DNA from: Macrostomum hystrix
Taxonomy: Eukaryota > Animalia > Platyhelminthes
Reading direction: 5' to 3'
Length of the DNA stretch: 64,000 nt
NCBI GenBank assembly: GCA_950097015.1
Contig: CATNEN010000001.1
Location: 21,824,001-21,888,000 of the forward strand
Shown here: in pieces, positions 2,010 through 64,000 of the stretch
Layout of the letters: every line of letters begins with the position of its first letter
Numbering within the stretch: position 1 is the first letter of the stretch
The notes under the pieces: generated by a model
Databases searched by the model: none
Seen by the model: the letters and a program-made list of their open reading frames with translations, nothing else
What the model was told of the DNA's origin: nothing
Position numbers and translations under genes: made by a program

Positions 2010-3950
<1,941 letters not shown>

Positions 3951-10125: not shown

Positions 10126-12218
10126 TCACTCTCCAGTCGGGTCGATCTGGGGCAGGAGGCCGGCAGCCGAGATGTTGTCGCCGGCGCCGCCAGTCTGCCT
10201 GACCCGGGTGCATACGAGGCCGGGCGCCACGCACATTGTGAGGCTGTCGGAGCCGGCAGTCTCATTCCAGCAGCTGACTGGCTCGCTGGCATTGAATGTT
10301 CTCCGGTCGGCTCCGGGCAGTTCGCTAACAGCGAAGCTGTCATCCATGAGCAGCTTGACCCGGCTGACGTCCACATCGGGCACGGCGCAGGTGTACCGGT
10401 GGGCCACCAGGGCGGCCCTGGCAGCAGCCGAACGTGGATTGACCCAGCGCGAATCGGAGCGGGTCAGGATGGCCTGGAAGCCCAGGGTGTGCAGGTGGAT
10501 GCGGCTGGGCTGCCGCTTCGAGTCTGGGATGCAATGGGGTGGGGCGGGGATGCCAGATTTTGTTTAGAACAAATACCGTACGCAGGCACACGTACACACA
10601 GGTGTGTACATTTGAACTGACTTTCTAATTTTCAGGCAGTGCACACATTCACCGTGCCTTGGAGGTTGGCCATCAAGGTGCACGACAAGTCCCCAAGCCT
10701 TCTCTTCTCGGCTGCGTCCCAAAATGGATCTGGCTTCGTAAAGGAATCGAGCTCAGAAACCTTGGTGCGAGAGGCAACGCATTCGACCGCTGTTTACAAA
10801 GGTAAATATTCGGCAGCTAACCTGGCAAGTCGCGCAGGGCGGTATACAGCCGACGCATCAGGTCCAGCATGGTGGCCACGCGCGGATAAGCGGCAGAGAG
10901 TACAATGGGCTTGCCAGTCTCCAAGACGCTAACCAAGTTCGGCAGCTCCTGTTCGTTCAGGCCGATGGAGTCCGCTTTGTTCAGCACGTGATGCACCACC
11001 AGGCTGAGTATGTCGGCGTCGGCAAACGAAGCCATCTCAAAGTGGATCAGCGGGTGAGTCTGCTCTGTTAGGAAATCTCCCAGTTTGCCCAGCAATGCAT
11101 CCGGCTCGCTGGCATTGGAGTAGGGAATGCCGTCCATGAGCTGCAGGCCGCCAATCACCAGCACGTCGGGCCTGAAGGCGGCCAGGCTGGTCCGGAAATC
11201 AGGCAGGCTGGCCAGCCGAGGATTGCTCCGATCGCGGTGAAATATGAAACGATTGGCGCGCGGGGCTCGAAGCCCGGACCACTCGTCGCCAACTTCGTAC
11301 TCAACGCTGACGTGATAATCAGCGGATTCGTCTAGACCGGTCAGGATCACTCGACGGTGCAGGGCCGCGCTGTACTCCGGCGTTAGCGTTGCCCCTAGCA
11401 ACACATCCGAGCCGTCGTTAGCCAAGCGATTAGCCATTGTGGGCGCGTTGCCGCCCAGGGAAAATCGCCTAGCAACGCTAGCAGAGGCTTTTAGCCTGGC
11501 GATGATATCGGCAAATATGGACTCGTTGTCAAGGTAACGCTCCGCAGCTGCGCCCTAAATTAAATAGCAAGCAGCGATTGTTGCAGCGTGACTTCTGTTT
11601 GCCTCGATGTAATTTGTATGTACATTAGTACTGATGTCAATTGAATATACGTTGCTTATTTATAACGTTTACAACTGATGCACAATAAATTATCCCCTAC
11701 CAATGTACATCAATTGTCCATAACCAATGTACATGGATATAATCTACTACATATGCTTTCTTATCGCATACTCATGCATATAACTTTTCACTTACTATGC
11801 TCAAGTTAACACTCATTATAATGGATTTTTAAGTACTCGTTCGCACACAGCCACAGACCTGCTTGAAGAAGAAGCCAAACATCTGCCTGAAATCGGCCAT
11901 TGTCCGCAGGTGCTCCGGATAGCTGTCGAAGCCAGATGCCGGCGCCAGCTTTTCCAGCTCAGGCGAATCAAAGATCGACCAGAAATCCTTAGCCGTCACC
12001 ACAATGTCCACGCAGGCGCCCAGGCCAACAGCCAACCTGGGCCTGCGCGAGGCGGATAGCGAGTAGTTCTCAGCTACGGCCATCTGCCTAGCAACTAGGC
12101 GCATGTGGTCGAGCTGCTCGCCTGTTTGAACGCCGAGCAACTCGTGCCGGCTATTGAGCCAGTAGGCCAGAGCAAATGCCAGGGCGGCAACCAGGATTGA
12201 CGACTTGAGGGACAGCAT
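10126..12218 (-). CDS. ADPGK: ADP-dependent glucokinase, 3 exons: 12218-11859, 11554-10822, 10523-10126
   Basis: N-terminal hydrophobic anchor; motifs VGLGACVD, GAAAERY, GGNAPTMA, PRANRFI, IHFEMASF, DSIGLNEQEL, RIHLHTL, GAGDNISAAGL. Splice joins keep frame. Confidence 0.95.
10570..10792 (-). mobile_element. tRNA-derived SINE family A, degenerate copy in ADPGK intron 2
   Basis: Aligns by eye with copies at 15500, 22545, 26536 and 29070. Confidence 0.8.
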
Positions 12219-28573: not shown

Positions 28574-29069
28574 TTCAGCTGCGGAGATCAGTGGCGGAAA
28601 CGGTTAAGAATATAATTGCGAGTAAAAGATTTGAAACACAAAATGTGTATTCGTAAATCCACGCAAAATGTGTTGCAAAAATTTTCCCAGTCTAATCTAC
28701 AGATGGCTCTTGTCGGCTGCCTGAAGCGAGAAACAAATTCTGCATGTGTTTTATATCGTTCTCTCTCCCACTCTCGATCTCCCAATCTTCAATTTCTCAG
28801 CAGAGGTGGCCAGTGGCACCCGATAAGCCAATTCGAATTCGGCCCCACCAATGCAAGCAAATTTGAGCACACACTTTATGAGAGGCGGGCATCTCCCAGT
28901 GGATCTAGTGAGCCGGGTGTGAGTTTTCTCGCAGGCCGGAGCGGGTACTGGAATATGTACTGGATCTCTCGCATCTCTAGGATGCATAGATTAGGCATTT
29001 GCTAAGCTCTGCAATTCTCGACAATATTTTTGTACCCCTAGGAGTCATTTTGTACTAATGCTCCAGCAT

Positions 29070-29404
29070 GGGGTGAGAGGCAGAGCGATTGACGCCCCCT
29101 GAGTTCGATTCCACGGCGAGGCCAAATTTCTTTGGGGCGCAGCCGCGGAGAGAAGGCTTGGTGGCTTGTCGTGCAATTTACGCCCTTGTGGGCCAAGGTA
29201 CAGTGAGAGTGTACACTCCCTGACGGTGAGAAAGTCAGGGCAGATGTACACACCTGTGTGAGCGTGCGCCTGCGTACGGTATCTGTGTGCGTGTGTGCTT
29301 AAGAGTCAGCGAAATGGGCAGAATTGCCTCCTCACTGGTTGCGGGTCTAGTGTCACCAAATGATGTGCCACTGCCCGCAGCCCTGATGCAAATTTTATTA
29401 TTAT
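29070..29404 (+). mobile_element. SINE family A, plus-strand copy
   Basis: GGGGTGAGAGGCAGAGCG head, GAGTTCGATTCC B box, TTATTATTA tail. Confidence 0.85.
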
Positions 29405-40178: not shown

Positions 40179-41327
40179 ATGTCCAGTGACAGTTTGTACC
40201 GAGAAGTCTTCAATCAGTTCGACTTGAACGGTGATGGCAACATCAGCGTCAATGAGCTGCGTGTGGCAGTCAGAACTGCCGGAGTCAATATTAGCGACGA
40301 CACTGTACAGGTGAGCATTTGTAGTCACAGAATGTGCTCAGCCGTGAGGCAGTTGCTCAACCAACATTGACAGCTTTACAGAATTAACAAAATACATTTC
40401 CCGGATAAGAATTTAATAAAGAAAATCAGTTTCCGAAGCTAAAATTAAGAATTCTGAGACCAGCCAATTACCATTTACAATTTTAAACATCCTATTTTTG
40501 AAAACAGACTCACTTGTTGAAAAAAAACTGAGGTTTTGAAAGCAAGTTTCATGAATCTATTTAAATTTTATTTTTTGACGTCCTTACATTTTACTTACTA
40601 ATTAATACTTACTTGCGGGAAGTATTAAGTAGGGAAGCCCTTTAGGGCCCTATCGCAGCCCTTAAAAAGTGAATCGCACCTTGGCCCACCTCAGCGTCGG
40701 CGACACTCATCCATCGATATCTCGAAGGCGGATATTATGCGAGATTGTCATCAGGTCAATAAACTGGGGTTTAGTAGCTAAGGTGCTAGATCAAAATCAA
40801 AATCTAATTATCAAAAAACGGGCAGAAGAGGACGCTGCCACAGAGAAGGCAGGTGGTAGAGTACCCTGTTTGAAACCAGACGTCTCATTGGAAGAGTCCA
40901 TAGCCATGGTTAGGACCATGCACATCTCCCTCTCTGCTGTCGGTTCTCTTGAGTTTGAGTCAGTCAGGAATTCAGCTACTCGACTGCACTGACTTCATTA
41001 TAATTTCAACAGGAGATTCTAAAGAGTGCTGACATCAACTCTAGCGGCGGTCTGGACTATAAGGAGTTCGTCTGTTTCGTGAAGCTGGCAGCCGGGTCCG
41101 AGGACGCCATGCCGCCTCGACCGAAGGAGCTGTTTGATGCGGCGGCCGACGGCTTTGATCTAGTCGGGCCAAATGAGCTAGCTGCTCTGACACAGGCTGA
41201 GCACAGTCTGTCAGCCATTGAGGCGGCAGTCCTGTCTGGCATTGCTGACAACCTTCAAGGCCGCAGCGTTGACTTGACTGAGTTTGTCGGACTCTGGCGC
41301 CAAGTAGAGACCAAAATGAACGCGTGA
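40179..41327 (+). CDS. Calmodulin-like EF-hand protein (148 aa), exons 40179-40310 and 41013-41327; possible upstream micro-exon 39570-39581 spliced to 40167
   Basis: EF1 DLNGDGNISVNE, EF2 DINSSGGLDYKE; C-lobe loops degenerate. Confidence 0.85.
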
Positions 41328-44049: not shown

Positions 44050-44767
44050 TATATAATAATAATTGCTGGGCTACGTGCGCGGCAATGGCACACTGGACCC
44101 GCAGCCGGCGAGGAGGCAATTCTGCACATTTCGCTGACTCCTGAGTACACATATTAAACTAGTGAGTCGAAGCCAGGCGGTTGGCCCGGCGGGCGCAAGT
44201 TCGAACCTGGCCCTTAAGAATCGAGCATTATCAATGTACTAACTCAAATTTTATTTAATGAGCAAGACGAAGGCAGATTAAAAGAGAAACACTATTCGTT
44301 GTGAATTAAAAGCAGAGACATTGAGGCAAAAAAATCAATAAGCCTCTCGGAGAGACGCCGCCGGTGCACAGCGCGACACACTAAATAGGGCTGTGCAAGG
44401 CCGACCCCAAGAGGGGGGGTGGGCGGCCTCGCGACCAGGCAACGTACATGCACCCCCCGCACCAATGTACAAGCCCCAACCCCCCGGTTTAACCTCCAAC
44501 CAAGCTTCGCTCGGTCGGACCACACAGATACCGTACGCAGCCACTCGCTCATACAGGTGTGTACATCTGCCATGACTTTGCCATCGTCAGGCAGTGTACA
44601 CTCTCCCTGTGCCTTGGAGGTTGGCCCGCAAGGGCGAGAATTGCACGATAAGCCTCCAAGCCTTCTCCGTGGCTGCGCCCCAAATGAATGTGGCCTCGCC
44701 GCGGAATCGAGCTCAGGGACCTTGGTGCGAGAGGCAAACGCGTTAACCGCTCTGCCATCGACCCCCC
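44050..44767 (-). mobile_element. SINE family A split into 44050-44150 (3' part) and 44520-44767 (5' part) by an insertion
   Basis: The two pieces are contiguous in the family consensus (..GACTCCTGAG.CACAC | CACACAGATACCGTAC..). Confidence 0.75.
44159..44519 (-). mobile_element. Non-autonomous Helitron-like element
   Basis: Minus strand begins TC within hairpin TCCGACCGAGC-GAA-GCTTGGTTGGA and ends with hairpin GCCGGGC-CAACC-GCCTGGC, a 9-nt spacer and CTAG followed by T. Confidence 0.55.
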
Positions 44768-45426: not shown

Positions 45427-47094
45427 ATGTCTGGCCCTGACTCGGCTCAGCTTGCGCAGTACCGCGAAGCATTCAACACATTCGACAAGAACCGCGACGG
45501 TCGAATCAGCGCCAAGGAGCTGGCCGCGGTGATGGAGAATCTGGGCGAGAAGCCCAGCAAGAAGGAGCTTAAAGTGAGGTCTTGGGATTCTGATTCGACG
45601 GTTGGAGTTGTGCTCATGTGACTCACAGAGTTGTGCTCATGTGACTCACAGAGTCGTGCTCATTTGACTCACAGAGTTGTGCTCATGTGACTCACAGAGT
45701 CGTGCTCATTTGACTCACAGAGTTGTGCTCATGTGACTCACAGAGTTGTGCTCATTTGACTCACGGAGTTGTGCTCATGTGACTCACAGAGTTGTGCTCA
45801 TGTGACTCACAGAGTCGTGCTCATTTGACTCACAGAGTTGTGCTCATGTGACTCACAGAGTCGTGCTCATTTGACTCACAGAGTTGTGCTAATGTGACTC
45901 ACAGAGTCGTGCTCATGTGACTCACAGAGTCGTGCTCATTTGACTCACAGAGTCGTGCTCATTTGACTCACAGAGTTGTGCTAATGTGACTCACAGAGTC
46001 GTGCTCATGTGACTCACAGAGTCGTGCTCATTTGACTCACAGAGTCGTGCTCATTTGACTCACAGAGTTGTGCTAATGTGACTCACAGAGTTGTGCTCAT
46101 GTGACTCACAGAGTCGTGCTCATGTGACTCACAGAGTCGTGCTCATGTGACTCACAGAGTCGTGCTAATGTGACTCACAGAGTTGTGCTAATGTGACTCA
46201 CAGAGTCGTGCTCATTTGACTCACAGAGTCGTGCTCATGTGACTCACAGAGTCGTGCTCATTTTACTCACAGAGTTGTGCTAATGTGACTCACAGAGTCG
46301 TGCTCATTTGACTCACAGAGTTGTGCTAATGTGACTCACAGAGTCGTGCTCATGTGACTCACAGAGTCGTGCTCATTTGACTCACAGAGTCGTGCTCATT
46401 TGACTCACAGAGTTGTGCTAATGTGACTCACAGAGTTGTGCTCATGTGACTCACAGAGTCGTGCTCATGTGACTCACAGAGTCGTGCTCATGTGACTCAC
46501 AGAGTCGTGCTCATTTTACTCACAGAGTTGTGCTCATGTGACTCACAGAGTTGTGTACATGTTTTTGACAGAGTTGTGCTCATGTTACAGATAAATTTGT
46601 TCTCATGTGACAGATGAAGTTGTGCTCATGTGATAGTTAGAGTTGCGCTAATATGACAGTTTGCCTAAGTGCTCATAGATATTTTATCTGAATGCACGAC
46701 TGTGTTGCACACTTTTTAAAAAAATTCAAATTGACCCCTTTTGAGAGGCCCGCAAGTACATGACGAATTCCAATATTTCAATATCCAGGATATGATAAAG
46801 TCCGTAGATGGCGATGGCAGTGGCAAAATAGATTTCAGTGAGTTCGTCCGGATGATGGAGGCCCGCACAGCGCAGCGAATGAGCGACCCGGAGCTCACGA
46901 AAATGTTCTTAGCCTTCGACAAGAACGGAGACGGCATCATCACCCTGGACGAGTTGCGCGTTGCCATGGAGAACATGGGCGAGGACGTCACCGAGTCAGA
47001 GCTGCGCAAGATGATTCGCCAAGCTGACAGCAACAAAGACGGGTCCATTGATTTCTCAGAATTTAAGAGGCTGCTTCAGTCGCTTGGCATGTAA
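45427..47094 (+). CDS. Calmodulin-like protein with four EF-hands (150 aa), exons 45427-45573 and 46789-47094
   Basis: DKNRDGRISAKE, DGDGSGKIDFSE, DKNGDGIITLDE, DSNKDGSIDFSE; too diverged to be canonical calmodulin. Confidence 0.92.
45606..46560. repeat. 23-bp minisatellite (GTTGTGCTCATGTGACTCACAGA)n
   Basis: About 41 units filling the calmodulin-like intron. Confidence 0.95.
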
Positions 47095-50000
47095 CATTGT
47101 GGATTTCTAACTCTGTCTTAAGGTAAAGCGTTTATGATGACTCTCCCGTAGTAACTGTTCAAATGAAATAGAATAAGCTCAAATGAGACCGGAAATTAAA
47201 CAAGTCAAAGATCAACGAGGTCTTAAATATTATAATTGTTAATTAGCATCTTAAAACCCTGAAGTTTAAGTTTAAGACGAATCGAAACCCAAACCTACAT
47301 GGATCCTTATATCGCCGGCCACGCTAATCAATTGACAGAAAATTAACTACATGCATGTACTCGTTTATTATTTATTGTGCTTACTTCATGTACTGTACTA
47401 AAGTACTAAAGTATAATATATGGCTATATGTATATGTAATTTTCATTATTTAAAAGTTCGTATCATTACATATGTCTCTTTAACATTTTTACGGCGCCGA
47501 TTATAATTTAACCATAGTTTATACTTGTATTCTTGCATTTTATTCAATGAATCCCTGAGACTTTAACGGCCGGTTTGTATTATCTGCGCCAACTGCGCCG
47601 TTAGTCACTGCATATCGTCAGCTGGGTAAATGCAAAAATATACGCAGCCAGAACCATTTTGATTTACAGCGACAAAATGGGACGACTATGGAACTACTAA
47701 CTATTTGATTGCTTGATTGCTTTGATGGAAATAGGGACACTGTGCGAGGTGTTCACAGGGAGTAGGTTCAGCAAGAATTGAAATTATGCATATGGGATTC
47801 TTAGGGATATGCAGCTAAGATTGAGGGCTTAACCCAAGGTTGAGAATGTCCAAATAGAGACAGCCTAGGTTCTTACTAGGATTCGATCGATATTTCTCAT
47901 GCCTCAACCACACAAAGACGTTACAATATTCGGCGACCATGGTTCAGACGGTCGTTCGACGCTGAGTCTTTAGGTTCCGTAGGGTTTGACGACGGAAACG
48001 AAACGCCAAGGGAGAATAAAGGTACGAAGGGTGACGAAGAGTCCCAAACGAAGAAGACTGAAATGAAAGACTGGTTCTAATGGCGTGTTCTTGACGAGGT
48101 AGCTGAGGTCTTGCCCGAAATGCCGCCGTACCACCTCCTTCTTATAGAGCCAAACTCAGGCACACACGCCGTGATCAGCCCGACCTTGACAGACAACCGT
48201 ATCACGTGCTCCGCCAGCCGGATGGTGATTTGTAGGGAAGGGAACGGGGTGGGCGCATAGAATGATTTATGGTCTAAAAAATGCAATTACAGTTAACTAT
48301 TCAGGAAGATTGATGACTAAAATGCAGACAGGTAGATGACAAGCGCAAAAATCGGAGTTTGATTTATTACTATAACATACATAGAGGGACGTGAGGGAGG
48401 CGGGTGCGCATTGACAGGTGAGGATGATTATTGACGGAGAACAATGGAAAGAAGGGAGGTGGATGAACGCTGAAAAAACGCAAAGTCATATTAGTAGGGG
48501 ACTAAACAATCCGGGAAAGGAAGGGATGGGTGAAACTGATAGATGGAGAAAACTCATAATAAATTTATAGTGCACAATGGAGGGGGTGGGTGAATTTGAC
48601 AGGTGAAAACCCCCCAAAATGAAAGTGATTTACGACCAGGGGAGGGGTTGGTGTTCATCACAGAAAAAAGGGCGAGTCATCAGGAATTGGGGAAATCGTG
48701 GGTAAATGAATGAGATAATTAATTGACTTGGCTAAAAAAGATTAATACCCCTTAAACCGTCGCTGTTGCCACAATTCATTTGACACAATATCAAAGTGAA
48801 TAATCAAATTCAATTTAATTTTAAACGCCTAGATCATATCCTCTCTCACGAAATTCATATGTTTTAAAAGAAACAAAACAATAAAAGTGAAATACCTTGC
48901 CAAGTAAAAGAATATGTATAAAATGCATTCTCGAAATTTAAATTTGTATATCTTTTGTAAAGAGAATATTTTATAAATATAAAGAAATCACACTAATACA
49001 CTAATTGTTTCTAATTGTAGAATCCCTGGGCCTCATTTATAAATGCTGCATTTATAACGCGCCACATTAAAAAAGTTAACGTTTGCTATTGGACTAAAGC
49101 ACGCAAATAACACACTATTACCATACATGTTAAAACATTTAGCTAGTGTAGCGCTCAGATTTAAGTGAATAAAAAACGAGTTTGCATTAATAGCAGCCAT
49201 GTAGTCTTTTAGTTAATTTTAATTTTAATTTATTGATTTTTAACGTTTGGTTGTACAAATTAGTAAAAAGAGACAAATAAAAACAAATAATAAATTAATT
49301 GTCTAGACTTATTGGTTTTAAAGGGAAATACATGTAAAAAATTAACTCACATCAATATTTTACAAGTCCATTTTGGTGATAAACATTTATGATTATTTTA
49401 AATAGTTACATCTTAAAAACACAGTTTTAATTCATGATCCTTTAGAAGTAGGCCTAAGAAAATATGTAGTATTACTGTAATAATTTAACCCTAAAATAAC
49501 ATTATAAATCAAGTACAGGTAATGTAGCAGCTGTAGCTCACTTTATGAAGAGTAAATAAAAAATGTAGGCCTAATAATCAAAATACTATAGTAAGTTTTT
49601 AATGCCAATGCATTTTTCATTTCATCCACCTCAAATTTGATATTTCTTTAAATTAGCTGAATAAACCTGGCCTGCATCACTTGTCTGCCTACGACAGTTT
49701 GGTCTTACTGGCTAAATTCACGCAGCATTAAGCCTTCTTAAGTATCTGGACTGCCCTTTCCATGTTGGCAATCTAGCATGTCTGTGGTGCATTGCTGATT
49801 GTTAGTGGAATTCTGTGAAAGCTCAATTGTGGCTAGCACTCTTGGTTGCTATAGCCAGTGTTGGCTCAGTAGTACATTGCAGTGACAGTACAGTTGCCAT
49901 TTTAGTGCTGGCATTTTTGTCCTGAGGGGCTACCTCATAAAGTTCACCATGGGCAACAGGAATAGAAACTTGGTTAGTGGCACAGTCTGGTCTGTTGTTG

Positions 50001-50236
50001 CAGGTGCAGTATTGTGCATTGCGCACTAGGCCTATAGCTAATAACAGTTTTCAATATCTATTGTTTCAATTTACAAACTGATTAAATAGGCCTCGTTCAA
50101 TTTTAAATTTATTTATATAATCACTCTGAGTAGAAATAAACAATCATGTCTTTCCAGCCAAAATAAAGTAGCTTAAAAGAGCACATAGAGCTCTTTGATT
50201 GGAATAAGTGAGCTACCATTCAGCTGACCAGACATC

Positions 50237-53200
50237 ATGCAGGAGTCTGGTAAGTGAGCTACACATCTCCCATAGTTTGCTGAAGGCTCACTAATTTGAG
50301 CATGGTCATTCAAATAATTTTTTTAAACATTGGATAAAATTTATATATTTTTTTTCACCCCTGCCTGTTTAGGAAGCAGCGCTTCTTTAGCTGACATGGA
50401 CAATGGATCGCTCCATGCTGCCGCTTCTGATGCTTCATCAACCTCATGTGGCTATGTTGTCAAGGGCAACATCTATCAGGGCGCCCCGGCAAATCACTGG
50501 CGGTCTTCATCACTGCAACAATTGCATTTGCAGCAGCAGCAGTTGCAACAGTTGCAGTTGCAGGCCAGACGGCAGAGTGAAGCACTTGAAAGTGTGACTG
50601 ACTGCTCATTTGCTAATGAACCTGCCCCAAGCTCCGCCACCCTGCCAGTGTCTGCGAGGGTCAAGCAGCTGCAGGTCTGCGTCCCGATTGCTGCTGTTTT
50701 AATTGAGCCTAATTAACCCATCCCCAATCCCCATCCACCCCATACTCAGGACACTCTTGCCTAGTTTACCGATCCCAACCTCCCCATACTCAGGACACTC
50801 TTGCCTAGTTTACCGATCCCAACCTCCCCATACTCAGGACACTCTTGCCTAGTTTACCGATCCCAACCTCCCCATACTCAGGACAGTATTGCCTAGCTTA
50901 CCGATCCCAACCTCCCCATACTCAGGACACTCTTGCCTAGTTTACCGATCCCAACCTCCCCATACTCAGGACACTCTTGCCTAGCTTACCGATCCCAACC
51001 TCCCCATACTCAGGACACTCTTGCCTAGTTTACCGATCCCAACCTCCCCATACTCAGGACACTCTTGCCTAGCTTACCGATCCCAACCTCCCCATACTCA
51101 GGACACTCTTGCCTAGTTTACCGATCCCAACCTCCCCATACTCAGGACACTCTTGCCTAGTTTACCGATCCCAACCTCCCCATACTCAGGACACTCTTGC
51201 CTAGTTTACCGATCCCAACCTCCCCATACTCAGGACACTCTTGCCTAGTTTACCGATCCCAACCTCCCCATACTCAGGACACTCTTGCCTAGTTTACCGA
51301 TCCCAACCTCCCCATACTCAGGACACTCTTGCCTAGTTTACCGATCCCAACCTCCCCATACTCAGGACACTCTTGCCTAGTTTACCGATCCCAACCTCCC
51401 CATACTCAGGACACTCTTGCCTAGTTTACCGATCCCAACCTCCCCATACTCAGGACACTCTTGCCTAGTTTACCGATCCCAACCTCCCCATACTCAGGAC
51501 ACTCTTGCCTAGCTTACCGATCCCAACCTCCCCATACTCAGGACACTCTTGCCTAGTTTACCGATCCCAACCTCCCCATACTCAGGACACTCTTGCCTAG
51601 TTTACCGATCCCAACCTCCCCATACTCAGGACACTCTTGCCTAGTTTACCGATCCCAACCTCCCCATACTCAGGACACTCTTGCCTAGTTTACCGATCCC
51701 AACCTCCCCATACTCAGGACACTCTTGCCTAGTTTACCGATCCCAACCTCCCCATACTCAGGACACTCTTGCCTAGTTTACCGATCCCAACCTCCCCATA
51801 CTCAGGACACTCTTGCCTAGTTTACCGATCCCAACCTCCCCATACTCAGGACACTCTTGCCTAGTTTACCGATCCCAACCTCCCCAAACTCAGGACACTC
51901 TTGCCTAGTTTACCGATCCCAACCTCCCCATACTCAGGACACTCTTGCCTAGTTTACCGATCCCAACCTCCCCAAACTCAGGACACTCTTGCCTAGTTTA
52001 CCGATCCCAACCTCCCCAAACTCAGGACACTCTTGCCTAGTTTACCGATCCCAACCTCCCCATACTCAGGACACTCTTGCCTAGTTTACCGATCCCAACC
52101 TCCCCATACTCAGGACAGTATTGCCTAGTTTACCGATCCCAACCTCCCCATACTCAGGACACTCTTGTCTAGTTTACCGATCCCAACCTCCCCATACTCA
52201 GGACACTCTTGCCTAGTTTACCGATCCCAACCTCCCCATACTCAGGACACTCTTGCCTAGTTTACCGATCCCAACCTCCCCATACTCAGGACACTCTTGC
52301 CTAGTTTACCGATCCCAACCTCCCCATACTCAGGACACTCTTGCCTAGTTTACCGATCCCAACCTCCCCATACTCAGGACACTCTTGCCTAGTTTACCGA
52401 TCCCAACCTCCCCATACTCAGGACAGTATTGCCTAGCTTACCGATCCCAACCTCCCCATACTCAGGACACTCTTGCCTAGTTTACCGATCCCAACCTCCC
52501 CATACTCAGGACACTCTTGCCTAGCTTACCGATCCCAACCTCCCCATACTCAGGACACTCTTGCCTAGTTTACCGATCCCAACCTCCCCATACTCAGGAC
52601 ACTCTTGCCTAGCTTACCGATCCCAACCTCCCCATACTCAGGACACTCTTGCCTAGTTTACCGATCCCAACCTCCCCATACTCAGGACACTCTTGCCTAG
52701 TTTACCGATCCCAACCTCCCCATACTCAGGACACTCTTGCCTAGTTTACCGATCCCAACCTCCCCATACTCAGGACACTCTTGCCTAGTTTACCGATCCC
52801 AACCTCCCCATACTCAGGACACTCTTGCCTAGTTTACCGATCCCAACCTCCCCATACTCAGGACACTCTTGCCTAGTTTACCGATCCCAACCTCCCCATA
52901 CTCAGGACACTCTTGCCTAGTTTACCGATCCCAACCTCCCCATACTCAGGACACTCTTGCCTAGTTTACCGATCCCAACCACCCCATACTCAGGACACTC
53001 TTGCCTAGTTTACCGATCCCAACCTCCCTAAACTCAGGACACTCTTGCCTAGTTTACCGATCCCAACCTCCCCATACTCAGGACACTCTTGCCTAGTTTA
53101 CCGATCCCAACCTCCCCATACTCAGGACACTCTTGCCTAGTTTACCGATCCCAACCTCCCCATACTCAGGACACTCTTGCCTAGTTTACCGATCCCAACC

Positions 53201-56200
53201 TCCCCAAACTCAGGACACTCTTGCCTAGTTTACCGATCCCAACCTCCCCAAACTCAGGACACTCTTGCCTAGTTTACCGATCCCAACCTCCCCATACTCA
53301 GGACACTCTTGCCTAGATTACCGATCCCAACCTCCCCAAACTCAGGACACTCTTGCCTAGCTTACCGATCCCAACCTCCCCAAACTCAGGACACTCTTGC
53401 CTAGCTTACCGATCCCAACCTCCCCAAACTCAGGACACTCTTGCCTAGTTTACCGATCCCAACCTCCCCATACTCAGGACACTCTTGCCTAGCTTACCGA
53501 TCCCAACCTCCCCATACTCAGGACACTCTTGCCTAGTTTACCGATCCCAACCTCCCCATACTCAGGACAGTATTGCCTAGTTTACCGATCCCAACCTCCC
53601 CATACTCAGGACACTCTTGCCTAGTTTACCGATCCCAACCTCCCCATACTCAGGACACTCTTGCCTAGTTTACCGATCCCAACCTCCCCATACTCAGGAC
53701 ACTCTTGCCTAGTTTACCGATCCCAACCTCCCCAAACTCAGGACACTCTTGCCTAGCTTACCGATCCCAACCTCCCCATACTCAGGACACTCTTGCCTAG
53801 TTTACCGATCCCAACCTCCCCATACTCAGGACACTCTTGCCTAGTTTACCGATCCCAACCTCCCCATACTCAGGACACTCTTGCCTAGTTTACCGATCCC
53901 AACCTCCCCATACTCAGGACACTCTTGCCTAGTTTACCGATCCCAACCTCCCCATACTCCGGACACTCTTGCCTAGTTTACCGATCCCAACCTCCCCATA
54001 CTCAGGACACTCTTGCCTAGTTTACCGATCCCAACCTCCCCATACTCAGGACACTCTTGCCTAGTTTACCGATCCCAACCTCCCCATACTCAGGACACTC
54101 TTGCCTAGTTTACCGATCCCAACCTCCCCATACTCAGGACACTCTTGCCTAGTTTACCGATCCCAACCACCCCATACTCAGGACACTCTTGCCTAGTTTA
54201 CCGATCCCAACCTCCCCAAACTCAGGACACTCTTGCCTAGCTTACCGATCCCAACCTCCCCATACTCAGGACACTCTTGCCTAGTTTACCGATCCCAACC
54301 TCCCCAAACTCAGGACACTCTTGCCTAGTTTACCGATCCCAACCTCCCCATACTCAGGACACTCTTGCCTAGTTTACCGATCCCAACCTCCCCATACTCA
54401 GGACACTCTTGCCTAGTTTACCGATCCCAACCTCCCCATACTCAGGACACTCTTGCCTAGTTTACCGATCCCAACCTCCCCAAACTCAGGACACTCTTGC
54501 CTAGTTTACCGATCCCAACCTCCCCATACTCAGGACACTCTTGCCTAGTTTACCGATCCCAACCTCCCCATACTCAGGACACTCTTGCCTAGTTTACCGA
54601 TCCCAACCTCCCCAAACTCAGGACACTCTTGCCTAGTTTACCGATCCCAACCTCCCCAAACTCAGGACACTCTTGCCTAGTTTACCGATCCCAACCTCCC
54701 CAAACTCAGGACACTCTTGCCTAGTTTACCGATCCCAACCTCCCCATACTCAGGACACTCTTGCCTAGCTTACCGATCCCAACCTCCCCATACTCAGGAC
54801 ACTCTTGCCTAGTTTACCGATCCCAACCTCCCCATACTCAGGACAGTATTGCCTAGTTTACCGATCCCAACCTCCCCATACTCAGGACAGTATTGCCTAG
54901 TTACCCATCCCATCCTCTCCAAACTCAGGACACTCTTGCCCGCCTGAAGCGTCGTCCGCTGCTTCTGTCGCCAACCGCGGCCGTGGCTGCCGCTCCGTCG
55001 CGCGGCCTCGAGTCCCTGCCACTGCTGGGCGCCGCTTTCGCCGACGAGGATCGACCGGCCTCAGCCGCCGCCGCCCCGGCCTCAATCGATGAGGCTCTGC
55101 AGCGTCACGCTAGTGAGGCCTCCGGCAAACTGCCCGCCATCACCTGCGTTGAAACCGACGGCAAACTGGGCCGCAGTCTGACCTACGCCAAGCTGTACAG
55201 CTCAGCCAGAAAGCTGGCTCACTACCTGCTCAACAAGGTTGGCCACAAGGGTGCGGGCAGTTTGAAACCCGGCGACAAAGCCGCCATCCTGCTGCCAGCT
55301 GGCGATGTCTGCACCCTGGCTGTGGCCTTTGCGGCCTGTCAGCTGGCTGGCCTGGTGCCCGTGCCCGTAGAACCACCACCAACCGCCACGCAGGAGACCG
55401 GACAGATGCTTGCTGCGCTTGAGGTTGGTGTCCTTCATCAATTTAACTTAAGGGAGGAGTTGATCGTCTTTCAAATGATACTCAGGTTGCTAGGCAAATA
55501 CTTCCACAAAGATTCTAAGATTCTTAGGTTGCTAGGCAATCTTCTCCCCAGATACTCAGGTTGCTAGGCCCCAGGTTGCTAGGCAACCTCTCAGAGTCTC
55601 TGATCCACGATCGCCTTGTGTAACTCCGCCCGCAGGCTCGGGCAGTGCTAACCAGCGAGTCGTTCTACCGGACCCTGAAGACGCAGTCGCAGCACGAGCC
55701 GCCCTCTTACACTGGCTGGCCGGGCGGTCTGCACTGGATCCTGGCCGATTCGTCCGGCCTTGCCAAGCCGACCAAGGACTGGCGACCTCCGCAGTCGACG
55801 TCAACGCCGGTGTTGGCCTATGCCGAGTGCGGGCCGGCCAGGGATGGGACGCCGCGCGCCGTCTGCGTGACTCGAGCAGCCCTGATGGCTCACGGCAGAG
55901 CGCTCTGTTCGGCTCTGGGCTACGCTCGCGGCGATGCTGCCGTCTGCCTGCTGGATGCTCGACGCGATGTCGGACTGTGGCATGGACTGGTGGCCGCGAT
56001 GCTGTCTGGCATGCACGTGTACTTTGTACCCTACCTGCTGATGAAGGCCGAACCGTTGGCCTGGCTGCGGCTGGTTGCTAAGCAACGCGTCTCATTCGCC
56101 TGGGCCAAGTCGCGGGATCTGTACTGGTCGCTGCTGGCTGGCAGAGACGATTCCGCCACCAGTTCAATCAGTCTGGCTAGCTTGAAGTGCCTGCTAGTGG

Positions 56201-59200
56201 CCGACTCGGCCAATCCATGGTCGCTGACCTCATGCGACTCATTTCTGGCCTGTTATAGGCACCGCGGCCTGAACCAGAACTGCCTGGTCACTTGCGCGTA
56301 TTCTCCGGAGTCTCTCACTGTCAGCATCAGGCGGCCCGCTTTGTCCGTGGGTCGAGCTGTGATCAGCATGCACGGACTGAGCTATGGACTGGTTCAGGTG
56401 GGTTGTTTGTTCCTGAAGGCATTGTTCCTGAAGGATTTGTTCCTGAAGGCATTGTTCCTGAAGGATTTGTTCCTGAAGGCATTGTTCCTGAAGGATTTAT
56501 TCCTGAAGGCATTGTTCCTGAAGGATTTGTTCCTGAAGGCATTGTTCCTGAAGGATTTGTTCCTGAAGGCATTGTTCCTGAAGGATTTGTTCCTGAAGGC
56601 ATTGTTCCTGAAGGATTTGTTCCTGAAGGCATTGTTCCTGAAGGATTTGTTCCTGAAGGATTTGTTCATAGAGGATTTGTTCCTGAAGGATTTGTTCTTG
56701 AAGGATTTGTTCCTGAAGGATTTGTTCCTGAAGGATTTGTTCATAGAGGATTTGTTCCTGAAGGATTTGTTCCTGAAGGATTTGTTCCTGAAGGATTTGT
56801 TCCTGAAGGATTTGTTCCTGAAGGATTTGTTCCTGAAGGATTTGTTCCTGAAGGATTTGTTCCTGAAGGATTTGTTCATAGAGGATTTGTTCCTGAAGGA
56901 TTTGTTCCTGAAGGATTTGTTCCTGAAGGATTTGTTCATAGAGGATTTGTTCCTGAAGGCATTGTTCCTGAAGGATTTGTTCCTGAAGGATTTGTTTCTG
57001 AAGGATTTGTTCTTGAAGGATTTGTTTCTGAAGGATTTGTTCCTGAAGGCATTGTTCCTGAAGGATTTGTTCCTGAAGGATTTGTTTCTGAAGGATTTGT
57101 TCCTGAAGGATTTATTCCTGAAGGATTTGTTCCTGAAGGATTTGTTCCTGAAGGATCTCTTCCTGAAGGATCTCTTTCTAAAGGATCTCTTCCTAAAGGA
57201 TCTGTTCCTGAAGGATTCGTTCCTGAAAGAAGAATAAATTAGGTATCTGAGTGGCAACAGGAGTGCTCAATATAAGGATAAAACTGATTTGCGAACATGC
57301 ACCCATTCATTCCTCGCATTCCTCATATTTATTTATTGCCAAATCCTTTCCAGGTAGACTCGGATGCTGCCTACACCTCCATGACTCTGCAGGACTGCGG
57401 GCACCTCCTGCCAGCCTCGGCTGTGGCCATAGTCCGTCTGGGACGTCCGGGCGCCACGGAGCCTCGGCCGCAGCTCTGCCGGGTTGACGAAATGGGCGAA
57501 GTCTGCGTCTGTTCGCGCTACGCCGCCGCTCGCTACGCCGGCGCCGACTCGCCTAACGAGCGCGTCTTCAACTGCCGGCCAGTCAGCGCCACCGGCGACG
57601 ACTGCGGCAGCGGTGATCCGGCCGATCCAGACGGAGCTTTCGTGCGCACCGGCCTGCTGGGCTTCGTCGGACCGCCCACCTCTGTGAGTGAAGTGTGCAC
57701 CTGAGGTATTTGATTGTGTGCACCTGAGGTATTTGATTGTATGCACCTGAGGTATTTGATTGTGTGCACCTGAGGTATTTGATTGTGTGCACCTGAGGTA
57801 TTTGATTGTGTGCACCTGAGGTATTTGATTGTGTGCACCTGAGGTATTTGATTGTGTGCACCTGAGGTATTTGATTGTGTGCACCTGAGGTATTTGATTG
57901 TGTGCACCTGAGGTATTTGATTGTGTGCACCTGAGGTATTTGATTGTGTGCACCTGAGGTATTTGATTGTGTGCACCTGAGGTATTTGATTGTATGCACC
58001 TGAGGTATTTGATTGTGTGCACCTGAGGTATTTGATTGTGTGCACCTGAGGTATTTGATTGTGTGCACCTGAGGTATTTGATTGTGTGCACCTGAGGTAT
58101 TTGATTGTGTGCACCTGAGGTATTTGATTGTGTGCACCTGAGGTATTTGATTGTGTGCACCTGAGGTATTTGATTGTGTGCACCTGAGGTATTTGATTGT
58201 GTGCACCTGAGGTATTTGATTGTGTGCACCTGAGGTATTTGATTGTGTGCACCTGAGGTATTTGATTGTGTGCACCTGAGGTATTTGATTGTGTGCACCT
58301 GAGGTATTTGATTGTGTGCACCTGAGGTATTTGATTGTGTGCACCTGAGGTATTTGATTGTGTGCACCTGAGGTATTTGATTGTGTGCACCTGAGGTATT
58401 TGATTGTGTGCACCTGAGGTATTTGATTGTGTGCACCTGAGGTATTTGATTGTGTGCACCTGAGGTATTTGATTGTGTGCACCTGAGGTATTTGATTGTG
58501 TGCACCTGAGGTATTTGATTGTGTGCACCTGAGGTATTTGATTGTGTGCACCTGAGGTATTTGATTGTATGCACCTGAGGTATTTGATTGTGTGCACCTG
58601 AGGTATTTGATTGTATGCACCTGAGGTATTTGATTGTGTGCACCTGAGGTATTTGATTGTGTGCACCTGAGGTATTTGATTGTATGCACCTGAGGTATTT
58701 GATTGTGTGCACCTGAGGTATTTGATTGTATGCACCTGAGGTATTTGATTGTGTGCACCTGAGGTATTTGATTGTGTGCACCTGAGGTATTTGATTGTGT
58801 GCACCTGAGGTATTTGATTGTATGCACCTGAAGTATTTGATTGTGTGCACCTGAGGTATTTGATTGTGTGCACCTGAAGTATTTGATTGTGTGCACCTGA
58901 AGTATTTGATTGTGTGCACCTGAAGTATTTGATTGTGTGCACCTGAGGTATTTGATTGTGTGCACCAGAGGTATTTGATTGTATGCACCTGAAGTATTTG
59001 ATTGTGTGCACCTGAGGTATTTGATTGTGTGCACCTGAAGTATTTGATTGTGTGCACCTGAAGTATTTGATTGTGTGCACCTGAAGTATTTGATTGTGTG
59101 CACCTGAGGTATTTGATTGTGTGCACCTGAAGTATTTGATTGTGTGCACCTGAAGTATTTGATTATGTGCACCTGAGGTATTTGATTGTGTGCACCTGAA

Positions 59201-62200
59201 GTATTTGATTGTGTGCACCTGAAGTATTTGATTGTTTGCACCTGAAGTATTTGATAGTGTGCACCTGAATATTTGATAGTGTGCACAATGAATCTGATTG
59301 ATAATTAAAAGGCTTGGTACCTGTATGATAACAAAAACCGCAATTACAGGAGGGCAATGGCATATCACTAAAAGACACCAGACCCGCAGCCAATGAGGAG
59401 GCAATTCTGCCCATTTCGCTGACTCCTGAGCACACACGCAGATACCGTACGCAGGCACTCGCTCACACATCTGCCCTGACTTTCTCATCGTCAGACTGAG
59501 TACACTCTCATTGTGGCTCAAGCTCAGGGACCTTGGTGCGATAGGCAAACGCGTTTGACCACTCTGCCACTCAACCCCGTAACTGTATGATTTTACCGAA
59601 ATAATTAAATTAGATTAGATTAGTACCTGAAGGATTTAGTAACTACATAATCTGGTGTCTACCTGTAGGATTAATTAATAATCTAACTCCCTTTCAGGGC
59701 GGCCTTCTATTTGTCTGCGGCACCATCGCCACCCAGCTGTGCGTTGCTAAGCGACGCCACAGCGCCGACGACCTCATTGCCACCGTGCTAGCCATTGAGC
59801 CGCTGAAATTTGTTCACCGCGGCCGGATCGCCATTTTTGGCCAACCGTTGCTAGGCGACGATCGAATAGTTGTGGTTGCCGAGCAACGACCCGAGGCTAG
59901 CGACTCCCGCTGCCACAAGTGGGCCTGTGACGTGCTGCAGGCCATTGAAACTATTCACCAGGTGAGTTGAACCTGCTGATTCCTGCTGATGCTGCACTGA
60001 CCTCCTCGGACACATACCCATCTTGAGACTTCAAGTTTAGGATAGACACTCTCGGACAGACGCTAATGTCAGGATAGACACGTCAAGGCAGACACTCACC
60101 TCAGGACAGACGCACATCTCAGAACAGACACTCACCTGAGGACAGACACTCACCTCAGAACAGACTCACCTGAGGACAGACACCCACCTCAGGACAGACA
60201 CTCACCTCAGGACAGACACTCACCTGAGGACAGACACTCATCTCAGGACAGATACTCACCTCAGGACAGACACTCACCTCAGGACAGACACTCATCTCGG
60301 GACAGACACTCATCTCAGGACAGACACTCACATCAGGACAGACACTCATCTCGGGACAGACACTCATCTCAGGACAGACACTCACATCAGGACAGACACT
60401 CACCTCAGGACAGACACTCATCTCGGGACAGACACTCATCTCAGGACAGACAATAATCTCTGTATTGACACTGATTGTTCAATGCGCCCATTGGTGTGTA
60501 CATGGCCAGCAAGCAATGGCTGTATTATCCCGTCACACCGCAGGTGTCGGTGTACTGCCTGGCGCTGGTGCCGGCCAACACGCTGCCCCGCAATCCGCAT
60601 GGCTCAGTTGACACCGTGGCAGTTCGCCAGCTCTACTCAGCGGGCCGGATTCGACCCTGTCGTGTGCTCATGTGCCCCCAGGCCGCTGTGGCTGACATGC
60701 TGGATGATCCAACGACACCTTTTGCCAATGCTAACAGCGACGACTCTTCTACGGCTCTGGCTATCGAACCTCAGACCTCCGCCGTCGACGGAGCATCGTC
60801 GGCGCCAACCCTGCCCTGCCTGACGCTCACCGATGCACTGCGCTGGCGTGGCACTCGCGAGCCCGACGCTCGCCTGCTCTCCGTCTGCTGCGATTCTACA
60901 TCGGCGTCATCGTCTTCGACCGATTCCGCAGCCGTTGCGCCGGACAGCCTGCCGGACATTGTGGCCAGCTGTTCCATTAGCGAGCCGCTGACCTCTCAGA
61001 CTCTGCTGAAACGCTCCGAGCGGGTGGCCAGCCTCGTGAGGGCCGGCCTCCAGCTGTCCCAGCAGCAGGCGCCTGCGGTGGTGGCCGTTGCCGCTGCTCC
61101 TGGGCCCGACCTCCTGTCCGGCATCTTCGGCGCAATGCTGGCTGGCTGCGTGCCCGCCGTCATGCGGCCGCCAGCGCCTGCGCCCAGCAGCCTGGCCGCC
61201 TTCGCCAGACTGGTCCGACTGGCCGACTCAGCAGGGGTCATTGTCAGCCAGCCCGTTGCCAAGCTGCTCAAGGTATTCAAGCTATTAAACTCACATTCCA
61301 TAGACCAGAATAGAAATCCCATTAGTATGATGTAAGGGGCAAAGTTTCATATTTAAAAAGCAAATCACATCTCCTGTGCTCAAAAGAAAACCTTAGCCTT
61401 ACTAGAAATCCTATCATCCTTATTAAAAATCCCATCATCCTTATTAGAAATCTTATCATCCCTAGTAGAAATCCCATCACCCTTAGTAGAAGTCCCATCA
61501 TCCTTAGCAGAAATCCCATCCTTTTTTAGTTAAAGCACGTCATCCTTACAAGAAATCCCTTCATTCTTTGTTAGAATCCATCATCCTTGCTTGAACTCCC
61601 ATAATTCTTACTAGAAATTCTATCATCCTTGATTGAAATCCCATCATCCTTACAATAAATCCCATCATCCTTAGTAGAAATCCCATCACCCTTAGTAGAA
61701 GTCCCATCATCCTTGCTAGAAATCCCGTCATCCTTACCATCATTCACCTTCATTCCCATTCAGGCAAAGTCCTCGCAGCCGCACCTGCGCCCAACCCTGC
61801 CACCACTGCTGGAGCTGGACAAGGCCAAGAAGGCGGCGGAGAAGGCGTCATCTGCGGTTGACGCCGACGGCTCTGGCGCCGGACCAAAGACGGCCGCTCA
61901 GACAGACCCCGACGCCGTCGCCTACCTTGACCTGTGCGGCGCTTCCGGTGGCAACTTGTCTGACGATCTGCTGCTGTCTTCGCCGACGGCGACAACCGGC
62001 TCGGCTGCCTCGCCCGGCTCCAATGGCGTTGGAGTGCGCGTCACCCACCGGGTTGCCATGGCAGCCTGCCAGTGCCTGCAGACCCGCTGCGACTTGCAGC
62101 TGGGCCGCGACCTGCCGGCCTGCCTTGACCTGTACAGCGGCGGCATGGCCTTCATTGTGGCCTGCCTGGCTAGCGTGGCATGCGGACATCACACCCTGCT

Positions 62201-64000
62201 GATGCCCGCTGGTCAGTGGGAGCTCACAGCCTCGGGAGCTGCCGGGTTCCTGCAGATGCTGGCTCAGCGAACCGCTAGGGACGCCTTGTGCGGCTATGAA
62301 CTGCTGGACAGATGCTGCGCCAGACTGCAGCCTGAGACTGTCAAGGTCTGTCCCGCGTGTGGCCTTGCTCGGCCTGGCTTTGGGGTGTCTGCCGGTCTAT
62401 CGGGGTGTCTGTCTGTCTAATAGGGTGTCTGCCGGTCTATCGGGGTGTCTGTCTGTCTGTCTAATAGGGTGTCTGCCGGTCTATCGGGGTGTCTGTCTGT
62501 CTAATAGGGTGTCTGCCTGTCTAATAGGGTGTCTGCCGGTCTATTGGGGTGTCTGTCTATCTAATAGGGTGTCTGCCTGTCTAATAGGGTGTCTGCCGGT
62601 CTATTGGGGTGTCTGTCTATCTAATAGGGTGTCTGCCGGTCTATCGGGGTGTCTGTCTAATAGGGTGTCTGCCTGTCTATTGGGTGTCTGCCGGTCTATT
62701 AGGGTGTCTGCCTGTCTATTGGGTGCCTGCCGGTCTATTAGGGTGTCTGCCTGTCTATTGGGGCGTCTTCCTGTCTATTAGGGTGTCTGCCTGTCTAATA
62801 GGGTGTCTGCCGGTCTATTAGGGTGTCTGCCTGTCTATTAGGGTGTCTGCCTGTCTAATAGGTTGTCTGCCGGTCCATTGGGGCGTCTTCCTGTCTATTA
62901 GTGTGTCTGCCTGTCTATTAGGGTGTCCTCCTGTTTATTAGGATGTCTGTCTACTCATTCTAGGCACCGGCTAGTTCTTTCTTATTCGCTCGCTTTTTTA
63001 CATGTCTATCTCTCACTTTCTTACTTTCTCGTCATTTATCGTATATTGTTTCATACATTAGTCTGATCTTCCTATTCCAAGCTTTGGATCTTAATATCAA
63101 ATGCTAAAATTAGGTCTGGTATTCTAGAATGGACCTAATAATTAGGTAGCAGCACCAATAAAGTAGATCGAGGCACTTTGGTCCTTCTAAGTATCAGTTA
63201 TTTGTGTTTAGGTCTAAAAATACTTTTTTCTTCACACGAGTTTCTACTATTGTTTATGCCACAATGACTTTAACTAGACCTTATTATTATCGAAGATTGC
63301 GCTTAAAAATATCTAAATTCTCTGTCTTGACATCAGATTTAACTGCGTTTGACTGTACTTTGTCTATCAAAATTTCATTTCGATACTAATAGCTTGGAAA
63401 CATACGTTTAGAGAAGCAGAGGTGTGTACCTGCTGTGTTAAGCCACGAATTAAAAAAATTATATAAACTTACGTTGGAAGCGCCCGATATGTATCGAAAA
63501 AAGCATTATAAATCCAATATCTTTTAATTGATCAGCAAAAGCACAGCCTGGCCAGCCTGCGCTCCCTGGTGGTTCTGGGCAACGAGCGGCCACGTGCCGA
63601 CCTGCTAGCCAAATTCGGCCGCCTCCTTGTGCCTCTGGGCCTGAGTCCCAGTGCTCTCCGCTGCTCATTTGGATGCCGCGCCGTCCCGTGCCTGACGCTG
63701 CCATCCGGCGCCACCGACTCGTCCGGCTCTGCTACCATCTACGCCGACGCCAAAGCGCTCAGAGAAGATCGCCTGGTACCAGTTGACTCGGACAGTCCCA
63801 ATGCCATTGTACTAATGGAGGCCGGACAGCCCATAGCCGATGCTCGGGTATCGCTGGCTACTCCGGCTGTGCGAGGCGCCGACGTCGGCGAGATTCTAGT
63901 GAAACTCCGCGGCAACCAGCTGGCAACCCGGACTGGCTACCTGGGCGTCATCAGACAGCTGGACGAGTCCCGGCCGCCGGCACTGTTCGTCGTCGGCTCG
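50237..64000 (+). CDS. DIP2: Disco-interacting protein 2 homologue (tandem FAAL-like AMP-binding domains), 3' end beyond window. Exons: 50237-50249, 50373-50674, 54929-55423, 55636-56397, 57354-57683, 59698-59961, 60544-61272, 61764-62345, 63536->64000
   Basis: VSARVKQLQDTL..KRRP, LTYAKLYS.ARKLAHYLLNK, LKPGD, GLWHG, VADSANPWSLTSCD, GLSYGLV, RTGLLGFVGP, RRHSADDLIATVLAIEP.KFVHRGRIAIF, VYCLALVPANTLP, MCP, ERPR match DIP2. The first exon is less certain. Confidence 0.93.
50740..54900. repeat. 44-bp minisatellite (ACTCAGGACACTCTTGCCTAGTTTACCGATCCCAACCTCCCCAT)n, about 95 copies
   Basis: First unit AG ends at 50749 and last at 54885; the difference 4136 equals 94 x 44. Confidence 0.97.
56405..57230. 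repeat. 15-bp minisatellite (TTGTTCCTGAAGGAT)n in DIP2 intron
   Basis: Gives the LFLKD repeat ORF tail. Confidence 0.95.
57692..59285. repeat. 23-bp minisatellite (GTATTTGATTGTGTGCACCTGAG)n in DIP2 intron
   Basis: About 69 units; CCTGAAG variants cluster at the 3' end. Confidence 0.95.
59335..59577 (-). mobile_element. SINE family A, internally deleted, in DIP2 intron
   Basis: Head and 3' domain match other copies. Confidence 0.8.
60090..60452. repeat. 18-bp repeat (CTCAGGACAGACACTCAC)n in DIP2 intron
   Basis: About 20 units. Confidence 0.9.
61400..61740. repeat. Degenerate 21-bp repeat (AGAAATCCCATCATCCTTAGT)n in DIP2 intron
   Basis: Visible periodicity. Confidence 0.8.
62380..62950. repeat. 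About 20-bp repeat (GGGTGTCTGCCTGTCTAATA / GGGTGTCTGCCGGTCTATT)n in DIP2 intron
   Basis: Visible periodicity. Confidence 0.85.

What the first reader, a model, noticed from the sequence alone, without database searches (positions are those of the whole stretch)
50675..54940. DIP2 intron built from about 95 tandem copies of its own 3' splice site, each followed by an in-frame stop
Seen: the productive acceptor is CCAAACTCAG|GACACTCTTGCCCGC (exon starts 54929), restoring the DIP2-type motif VSARVKQLQ|DTLARLKRRP. Each upstream 44-bp unit reads CCCATACTCAG|GACACTCTTGCC-TAG: the same acceptor, the first four exon codons (DTLA; variant DSIA) and an in-frame TAG. The first copy (AG at 50748-49) would close a compact 75-nt intron with a CTAAT branch-like motif, so it looks like the ancestral acceptor. 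A GCC microhomology (GAGCC|TAATT versus CTTGCC|CGCC) bounds the duplicated unit. The last two decoys are the GACAGTATTGCC variant. Inference: the spliceosome must skip about 95 poison acceptors to make full-length DIP2. Array length could therefore tune DIP2 dose through NMD or a short N-terminal peptide, or the locus shows strict exon-definition splicing and intron growth by splice-site amplification.
Basis: partly seen in the sequence, partly recalled or inferred. Interest (0 to 1): 0.85.

Follow-up and report, generated by a model that had tools for sequence, protein, structure and literature searches.

The report
Silent splice-acceptor repeat in flatworm DIP2
A 44-base piece spanning the end of an intron and the start of the next exon is repeated 95 extra times in a flatworm DIP2 gene, yet the assembled transcripts use only the last, genuine copy, so it is likely a tolerated, large example of a repeat type already known from lancelets rather than a dosage switch.

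Summary
The array is real: 95 extra copies of a 44-nt unit (32 nt intron tail, 12 nt exon head) fill intron 2 of a DIP2-like gene, likely of a Macrostomum flatworm (77% identical to M. lignano Mlig027150). 94 of 95 keep the AG; all 95 carry an in-frame TAG. Spliced, leader-bearing contigs from 4 of 5 runs (2 studies) join exon 2 to the last acceptor; none of the 4 runs laid on the 5' side shows a decoy joint. Decoys have equal or better branch motifs than the real site, so the choice is likely made from the exon side, with NMD likely clearing any leak. The stop is not special: the original intron reads TAA there. Arrays fill 34% of the window and 6 of 8 introns of this gene. This is a 'mirage' minisatellite as described in amphioxus, the acceptor-side mirror of human F7 IVS7. 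The scan found this kind before on other DNA (32 notes, at least 11 genomes). The dosage-tuning reading is unsupported but not excluded, because contigs drop rare isoforms. New member of a known kind; interest 0.25.

The parts
50158..50249 (+). DIP2 exon 1, trans-spliced to the spliced leader at its 5' end; start codon at 50237
   Evidence: (22-letter loose end in X3, joint skipping 123 nt)
50373..50674 (+). DIP2 exon 2 (donor of the array intron follows 50674)
50675..50749 (+). Unique 5' part of intron 2 with the first acceptor copy: GCC breakpoint 50707-50709, branch-like adenosines 50712 and 50716, AG 50748-50749; would be a 75-nt intron
50750..54928 (+). Mirage minisatellite: 95 units of 12 nt exon head plus 32 nt intron tail, each head followed by in-frame TAG; 94 intact decoy acceptors
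54854..54856 (+). The one upstream AG (TAG) that would keep the frame open (+24 residues); no use seen
54898..54928 (+). Intron tail of the last, diverged unit with the productive acceptor AG at 54927-54928
54929..55423 (+). DIP2 exon 3 (66% GC; start of first AMP-binding domain)
55636..56397 (+). DIP2 exon 4
57354..64000 (+). DIP2 exons 5-9 (57354-57683, 59698-59961, 60544-61272, 61764-62345, 63536 to window end); exon 5 start seen in contigs, the rest inferred from the open frame and alignment

Best explanation
The array is a tandem amplification of the intron 2/exon 3 border of a DIP2-like gene, the assembled transcripts splice only to the last copy, and it is likely a selectively tolerated 'mirage' minisatellite whose spare acceptors are likely ignored because only the last copy is followed by the rest of exon 3. 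Steps: (1, inferred) a 44-nt segment bounded by GCC was duplicated in a short intron of about 67-75 nt; (2, inferred from the variant pattern) unequal exchange or slippage amplified and homogenised the interior while both edges kept older bases; (3, shown at contig level) exon 2 joins the last acceptor; (4, inferred) recognition comes from the exon side (enhancers in the GC-rich exon, or pairing with the exon 3 donor), since intron-side signals do not favour the last copy; (5, inferred from general knowledge) rare decoy products carry a stop at codon 110 with at least six junctions downstream and would be removed by NMD.
For: Anatomy. Junction exon 2 to 54929 in contigs of X1, X2, X3, X5, two studies, with at least 51 letters on the shorter side; no 75-nt or other decoy joint in the 4 runs laid on 50100-50790. 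Both edge copies share two bases absent from all 94 interior intron tails, and a 15-unit block is duplicated (0 of 300 shuffles reach 15): the turnover pattern described for amphioxus mirages (PMC3087553, passages). Interior decoys have a yTnAy branch match at -26, the first copy two (-38, -34), the real site none; pyrimidines 15 versus 16 of 21. Arrays cover 34% of the window and 6 of 8 introns of this gene; intron 4 with its array is also joined across in X2, X3, X5. Two partial M. lignano models begin exactly at the first residue of the exon 3 equivalent, a hint that the intron predates the array.
Against: Contigs drop rare variants, so a minor leak is not excluded; the runs' RNA status is not on record (inferred from joints and leader). 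A collapsed 74-nt array contig is present in 4 of 5 runs and cannot be assigned to pre-mRNA, DNA, decoy-spliced RNA or another locus. Exon 3 is long (495 nt) and its donor is far from consensus, so exon definition is not obviously strong; no enhancer was identified. The last two heads both being the rare variant (6 of 95; 0.003 if independent) could reflect selection near the real site, though edge exclusion explains it too. Neutrality itself was not tested.
Confidence: 0.72

Rival explanations
1. Leaky but unregulated: the spliceosome often picks a decoy (most likely the first, which closes a 75-nt intron), and NMD destroys these products so that only the productive form is seen.
For: The first copy has the best branch motifs and is closest to the donor; 195 of 196 upstream AGs give a premature stop; array sequence is present in 4 of 5 runs.
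Against: If all array depth came from first-decoy transcripts it would be about 2-4% of exon depth (crude, contig depth is a poor measure). The 15-mer array of intron 4, which holds no copy of a splice site, shows an equal or higher per-copy depth in X3 (1 of 4 runs), so plain intronic background suffices.
Confidence: 0.15
2. Regulatory poison array: copy number tunes DIP2 dose through NMD or a short N-terminal peptide.
For: Every head carries an in-frame stop; two of the donor-side human cases use nearby pseudo-sites (6-16, CBS; as summarised in PMC1557585).
Against: No decoy joint. The stop lies where the first copy's intron reads TAA, so it needs no selection, and a 44-nt unit brings it into every frame. 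The decoy peptide has no known domain; this paralogue lacks the DMAP1-binding domain. Arrays are commonplace here.
Confidence: 0.06
3. The array is real but its length is inflated or partly duplicated by the assembler.
For: An exact 15-unit block occurs twice; no long read or DNA run spanning the array was available.
Against: Twelve unit variants with shared, recurring substitutions and distinct edges; head-to-tail units occur in run contigs (joint going back 44 in X2); no N in the window.
Confidence: 0.05
4. The intron is removed stepwise (recursive splicing) using the repeats as ratchet points.
For: Each unit has an acceptor; six variant units have a donor-like GT four bases after it.
Against: Ratchet points need AG followed directly by GT (own knowledge); here AG is followed by GA in all 94 intact copies, and the mature junction has no extra bases.
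Confidence: 0.02

Closest known systems
Amphioxus 'mirage' minisatellites (Adh3, globins BflGb6 and BflGb9, troponin C, PGBD5): PMC3087553 and PMC3902484, passages read; original Adh3 paper not held
   Same: Tandem unit spans an intron-exon border, including the acceptor-side type (BflGb6: intron 3' end plus exon 5' part); splice signals kept; normal splicing; homogenised interior with excluded edges.
   Different: Flatworm rather than cephalochordate; 95 extra copies against 3-6 units in BflGb6; 99% mean unit identity; length polymorphism and somatic instability not tested here.
Human splice-donor VNTRs: F7 IVS7 (37 bp), 6-16, CBS IVS13, LMNB2, PDGF, as described in PMC1557585 (abstract, introduction and passages read)
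   Same: Minisatellite reiterates an authentic splice site inside the intron; the exon-adjacent site is used, at most the nearest pseudo-sites leak.
   Different: Those are donor-side with 5-25 copies and explained by 5'-to-3' scanning to the first site; here the acceptor side is repeated and the last site is used, which a first-site rule cannot explain.
DIP2 family (PF00501 tandem AMP-binding domains); M. lignano Mlig027150
   Same: 77% identity over 1287 aligned residues; conserved motif across the exon 2/3 junction.
   Different: This paralogue and its M. lignano orthologue have a short N-terminus without the DMAP1-binding domain PF06464.

Membership tests
Mirage minisatellite | Tandem repeat unit spans an exon-intron boundary of the host gene | tested here: met
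   32 nt intron tail plus 12 nt identical to exon 3 head
Mirage minisatellite | Many units keep the splice signal | tested here: met
   94 of 95 decoys keep CAG
Mirage minisatellite | Regular splicing to the authentic site is undisturbed | tested here: met
   Productive junction in 4 of 5 runs, no decoy joint in 4 runs laid; contig level only
Mirage minisatellite | Concerted evolution of the interior with excluded boundary units | tested here: met
   Edges share two states absent from the interior; duplicated 15-unit block
Mirage minisatellite | Length polymorphism or somatic instability | not testable with these tools
   One assembly; no genome or DNA run held
Regulated unproductive splicing (AS-NMD poison site) | Use of the alternative site creates a premature stop | tested here: met
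   195 of 196 upstream AGs
Regulated unproductive splicing (AS-NMD poison site) | The poison isoform is made at measurable, regulated level | tested here: inconclusive
   No decoy joint, but contigs drop rare and NMD-cleared forms
Regulated unproductive splicing (AS-NMD poison site) | Conserved across species and NMD-sensitive | not testable with these tools
   No orthologous DNA found
Recursive splicing ratchet points | Acceptor AG directly followed by a donor GT | tested here: not met
   All intact copies read AG then GA
DIP2 protein family | Tandem AMP-binding (adenylate-forming) domains and DIP2 best hits | tested here: met
   PF00501 in 3 of 8 exon translations (one above the curated cut-off); 50 hits, named ones mostly DIP2
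DIP2 protein family | N-terminal DMAP1-binding domain | tested here: not met
   Only 105 residues precede the junction, no Pfam hit in exon 2; orthologue P0002 also lacks PF06464

The most novel reading that the evidence does not exclude
The array is a heritable, length-variable sink: a fraction of DIP2 pre-mRNA is spliced to decoy acceptors and destroyed by NMD, so copy number of a splice-site minisatellite sets gene dose, and mirages in repeat-rich genomes are an unrecognised class of expression variants.
Probability: 0.07. Interest if true: 0.7.

Novelty: new member of a known kind. Interest (0 to 1): 0.25.

Why it matters
As it stands it extends mirage minisatellites to a flatworm (no such report in my searches) and is much larger than the published cases I read. 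Its value is as a natural test of 3' splice-site choice: 94 intact acceptors, the first with better branch motifs and closing a 75-nt intron, are passed over for the one followed by the true exon. In a genus with RNAi and transgenesis this can separate exon-side recognition from NMD masking. It would matter more only if decoy use proved measurable and length-dependent.

Tried and rejected
No whole genome is held, so no genome-wide count of mirages, no search for the unit at other loci and no orthologous intron. No RNA holder was listed as RNA on record. Unique intron parts (50676-50723 and the last unit) have no cover in the runs laid; this is not used as evidence. Metagenome scans for the unit and for exon 3 relatives found nothing. 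A shared CCTGA core among the window's arrays (6 of 24) was rejected: the best 5-mer count is at chance level (P 0.49). RNA folding does not favour the real acceptor (unpaired probability at the AG 0.15 against 0.79 for a middle decoy), so structure does not explain the choice. Intron creation by the array was rejected as unlikely: the unique 5' intron part has its own donor and branch motifs, and M. lignano partial models start at the same residue (indirect). X4 is not counted for the junction: its contig leaves the window at 50675 but its onward letters were not displayed; my notebook entry saying 5 of 5 is corrected here to 4 of 5. Papers sought but not held. A search for NMD in Macrostomum returned no Macrostomum paper among the 10 listed; NMD activity there is assumed.

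Full report
Observation. The sequence at 50675-54940 is as described. TRF gives period 44, 95.7 copies, 98% matches. Cut at each acceptor there are 95 upstream units in 12 variants, 60 identical to the consensus; 94 of 95 decoy heads follow CAG, one follows CCG; all 95 have TAG at codon 5; six heads are the DSIA variant (units 4, 32, 39, 65, 94, 95). The first copy would close a 75-nt intron; the intron to the last copy is 4254 nt.

Gene. Nine exons from 50158 to the window end give an open frame of at least 1314 residues without a stop. Exon 4 finds 50 relatives, the best M. lignano Mlig027150 (79% on the exon; 77% over 1287 aligned residues), then other Macrostomum and animal DIP2 proteins. 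PF00501 is hit by 3 of 8 exon translations. The junction peptide aligns with the conserved DIP2 motif in 10 of 12 relatives aligned; P0005 is gapped and P0040 diverged. The window is thus likely from a Macrostomum species other than M. lignano; the species was not determined. This paralogue lacks the DMAP1-binding domain, as does its orthologue.

Transcripts. Five runs hold the gene, in two studies, none on record as RNA. They behave as RNA: contigs join across GT..AG introns of 123 and 212 nt, and a 22-letter loose end before exon 1 in X3 matches the end of the M. lignano spliced leader printed in PMC8629364 (passages). Exon 2 runs directly into 54929 in X1, X2, X3 and X5; X4's onward letters were not displayed. 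Of the 4 runs laid on 50100-50790 none gave a joint to the first decoy or a loose end with the stop-bearing head among those shown (4 loose ends were not displayed). A collapsed 74-nt array contig occurs in X2, X3, X4 and X5, not X1, and X2 shows the head-to-tail joint, so the repeat exists in molecules apart from the assembly. Its depth divided by the 68-fold word multiplicity is about 2-4% of exon depth; the 15-mer array of intron 4 gives an equal or higher figure in X3, the 1 of 4 runs that shows it. These depths are crude and only hint that the array is at intronic background level.

Origin. The first copy keeps the original upstream intron, the last keeps the original exon. Both edge tails share two bases that all interior tails lack, and the first has 8 extra bases. 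Units 1-15 recur exactly as 36-50; 0 of 300 shuffles reach that length. This is ordinary minisatellite turnover with excluded edges. The 'poison' stop stands where the first copy's intron reads TAA, part of its branch-like motif, so it came along with the breakpoint; with a 44-nt unit it enters all three frames. One upstream TAG (54854-54856) would even be in frame. Two partial M. lignano models start at the first residue of the exon 3 equivalent, indirect support for an older intron at this place.

Why the last site. Intron-side signals do not favour it: interior decoys match yTnAy at -26, the first copy at -38 and -34, the real site does not; pyrimidine counts are 15 versus 16 of 21; folding leaves the real AG less open than a middle decoy. 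What is unique to the last copy is the exon beyond +12 (66% GC against 52% in the array). I therefore infer exon-side recognition, with NMD as back-up (own knowledge; the decoy product would be 109 residues). Leak hidden by NMD remains the main rival.

Background. Tandem arrays cover 34% of the window; 6 of 8 introns of this gene hold one, intron 5 with 55 donor-like words. M. lignano has 15% simple and tandem repeats (PMC5730564, passages); repeat content in two other species is 23-28% and not yet characterised (PMC10468722, passages). Of the six intronic arrays of this gene only this one crosses an exon border.

Known kind. I first reached the human donor-side VNTRs (F7 IVS7 and others; PMC1557585, abstract, introduction, passages). 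The scan's earlier notes (32 findings in at least 11 genomes, 8 shown, up to about 840 copies, unchecked) led me to the amphioxus 'mirages'. PMC3087553 (passages) describes tandem duplications of an intron 3' end plus exon start, intact splice signals, undisturbed splicing, concerted interior and excluded edges; PMC3902484 (passage) agrees. Four of five defining features are met, one is untestable. Searches for a flatworm case found none; the library lacks most subscription papers, and no supplements were read.

Verdict. Real, transcribed, correctly spliced; a large new member of a known kind, likely neutral. It is a tidy test case for acceptor choice, not evidence of a dosage device. Interest 0.25; regulatory reading probability 0.07.

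Noticed in passing
window 50157-50166: DIP2 is trans-spliced at 50158; the leader's terminal ATG would open a three-codon upstream frame before the main start at 50237.
   Followed up: partly
window 57693-59286: Intron 5 holds a 23-nt array of 69 copies starting 9 nt after the donor, with 55 donor-like AGGT(A/G) words that are not copies of the real donor.
   Followed up: partly
window 55470-55590: Intron 3 has four degenerate short repeats that share a 9-nt word and a C-rich lead-in with the array unit; local score 24, reached by 0 of 553 other windows (post hoc). Possibly a transferred fragment of the unit.
   Followed up: partly
window 60089-60452: Intron 6 holds an 18-nt array whose unit looks like an acceptor (13 CAGG words in the intron); its splicing was not covered by the runs laid.
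   Followed up: no
window 2049-3948: A thymidylate-synthase-like gene (recognised by eye, not searched) with minisatellites in both introns, each ending 20-30 nt before the acceptor.
   Followed up: no
window 40180-41327 and 45427-47095: Two small EF-hand/calmodulin-like genes (by eye, not searched); the second has a 23-nt array in its intron.
   Followed up: no
window near 10580, 15520, 22610, 26620, 29060-29360, 44100-44760, 59390: A dispersed repeat of about 300 nt recurs at least seven times, on both strands; SINE- or MITE-like, not analysed.
   Followed up: no
window 50654: Run X1 (other study and organism label) differs by one base in exon 2 (Ala to Ser) but uses the same junction.
   Followed up: no
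window, 6 of 24 arrays: A CCTGA word occurs in six array units, four of them in DIP2 introns; not above chance as a 5-mer.
   Followed up: yes
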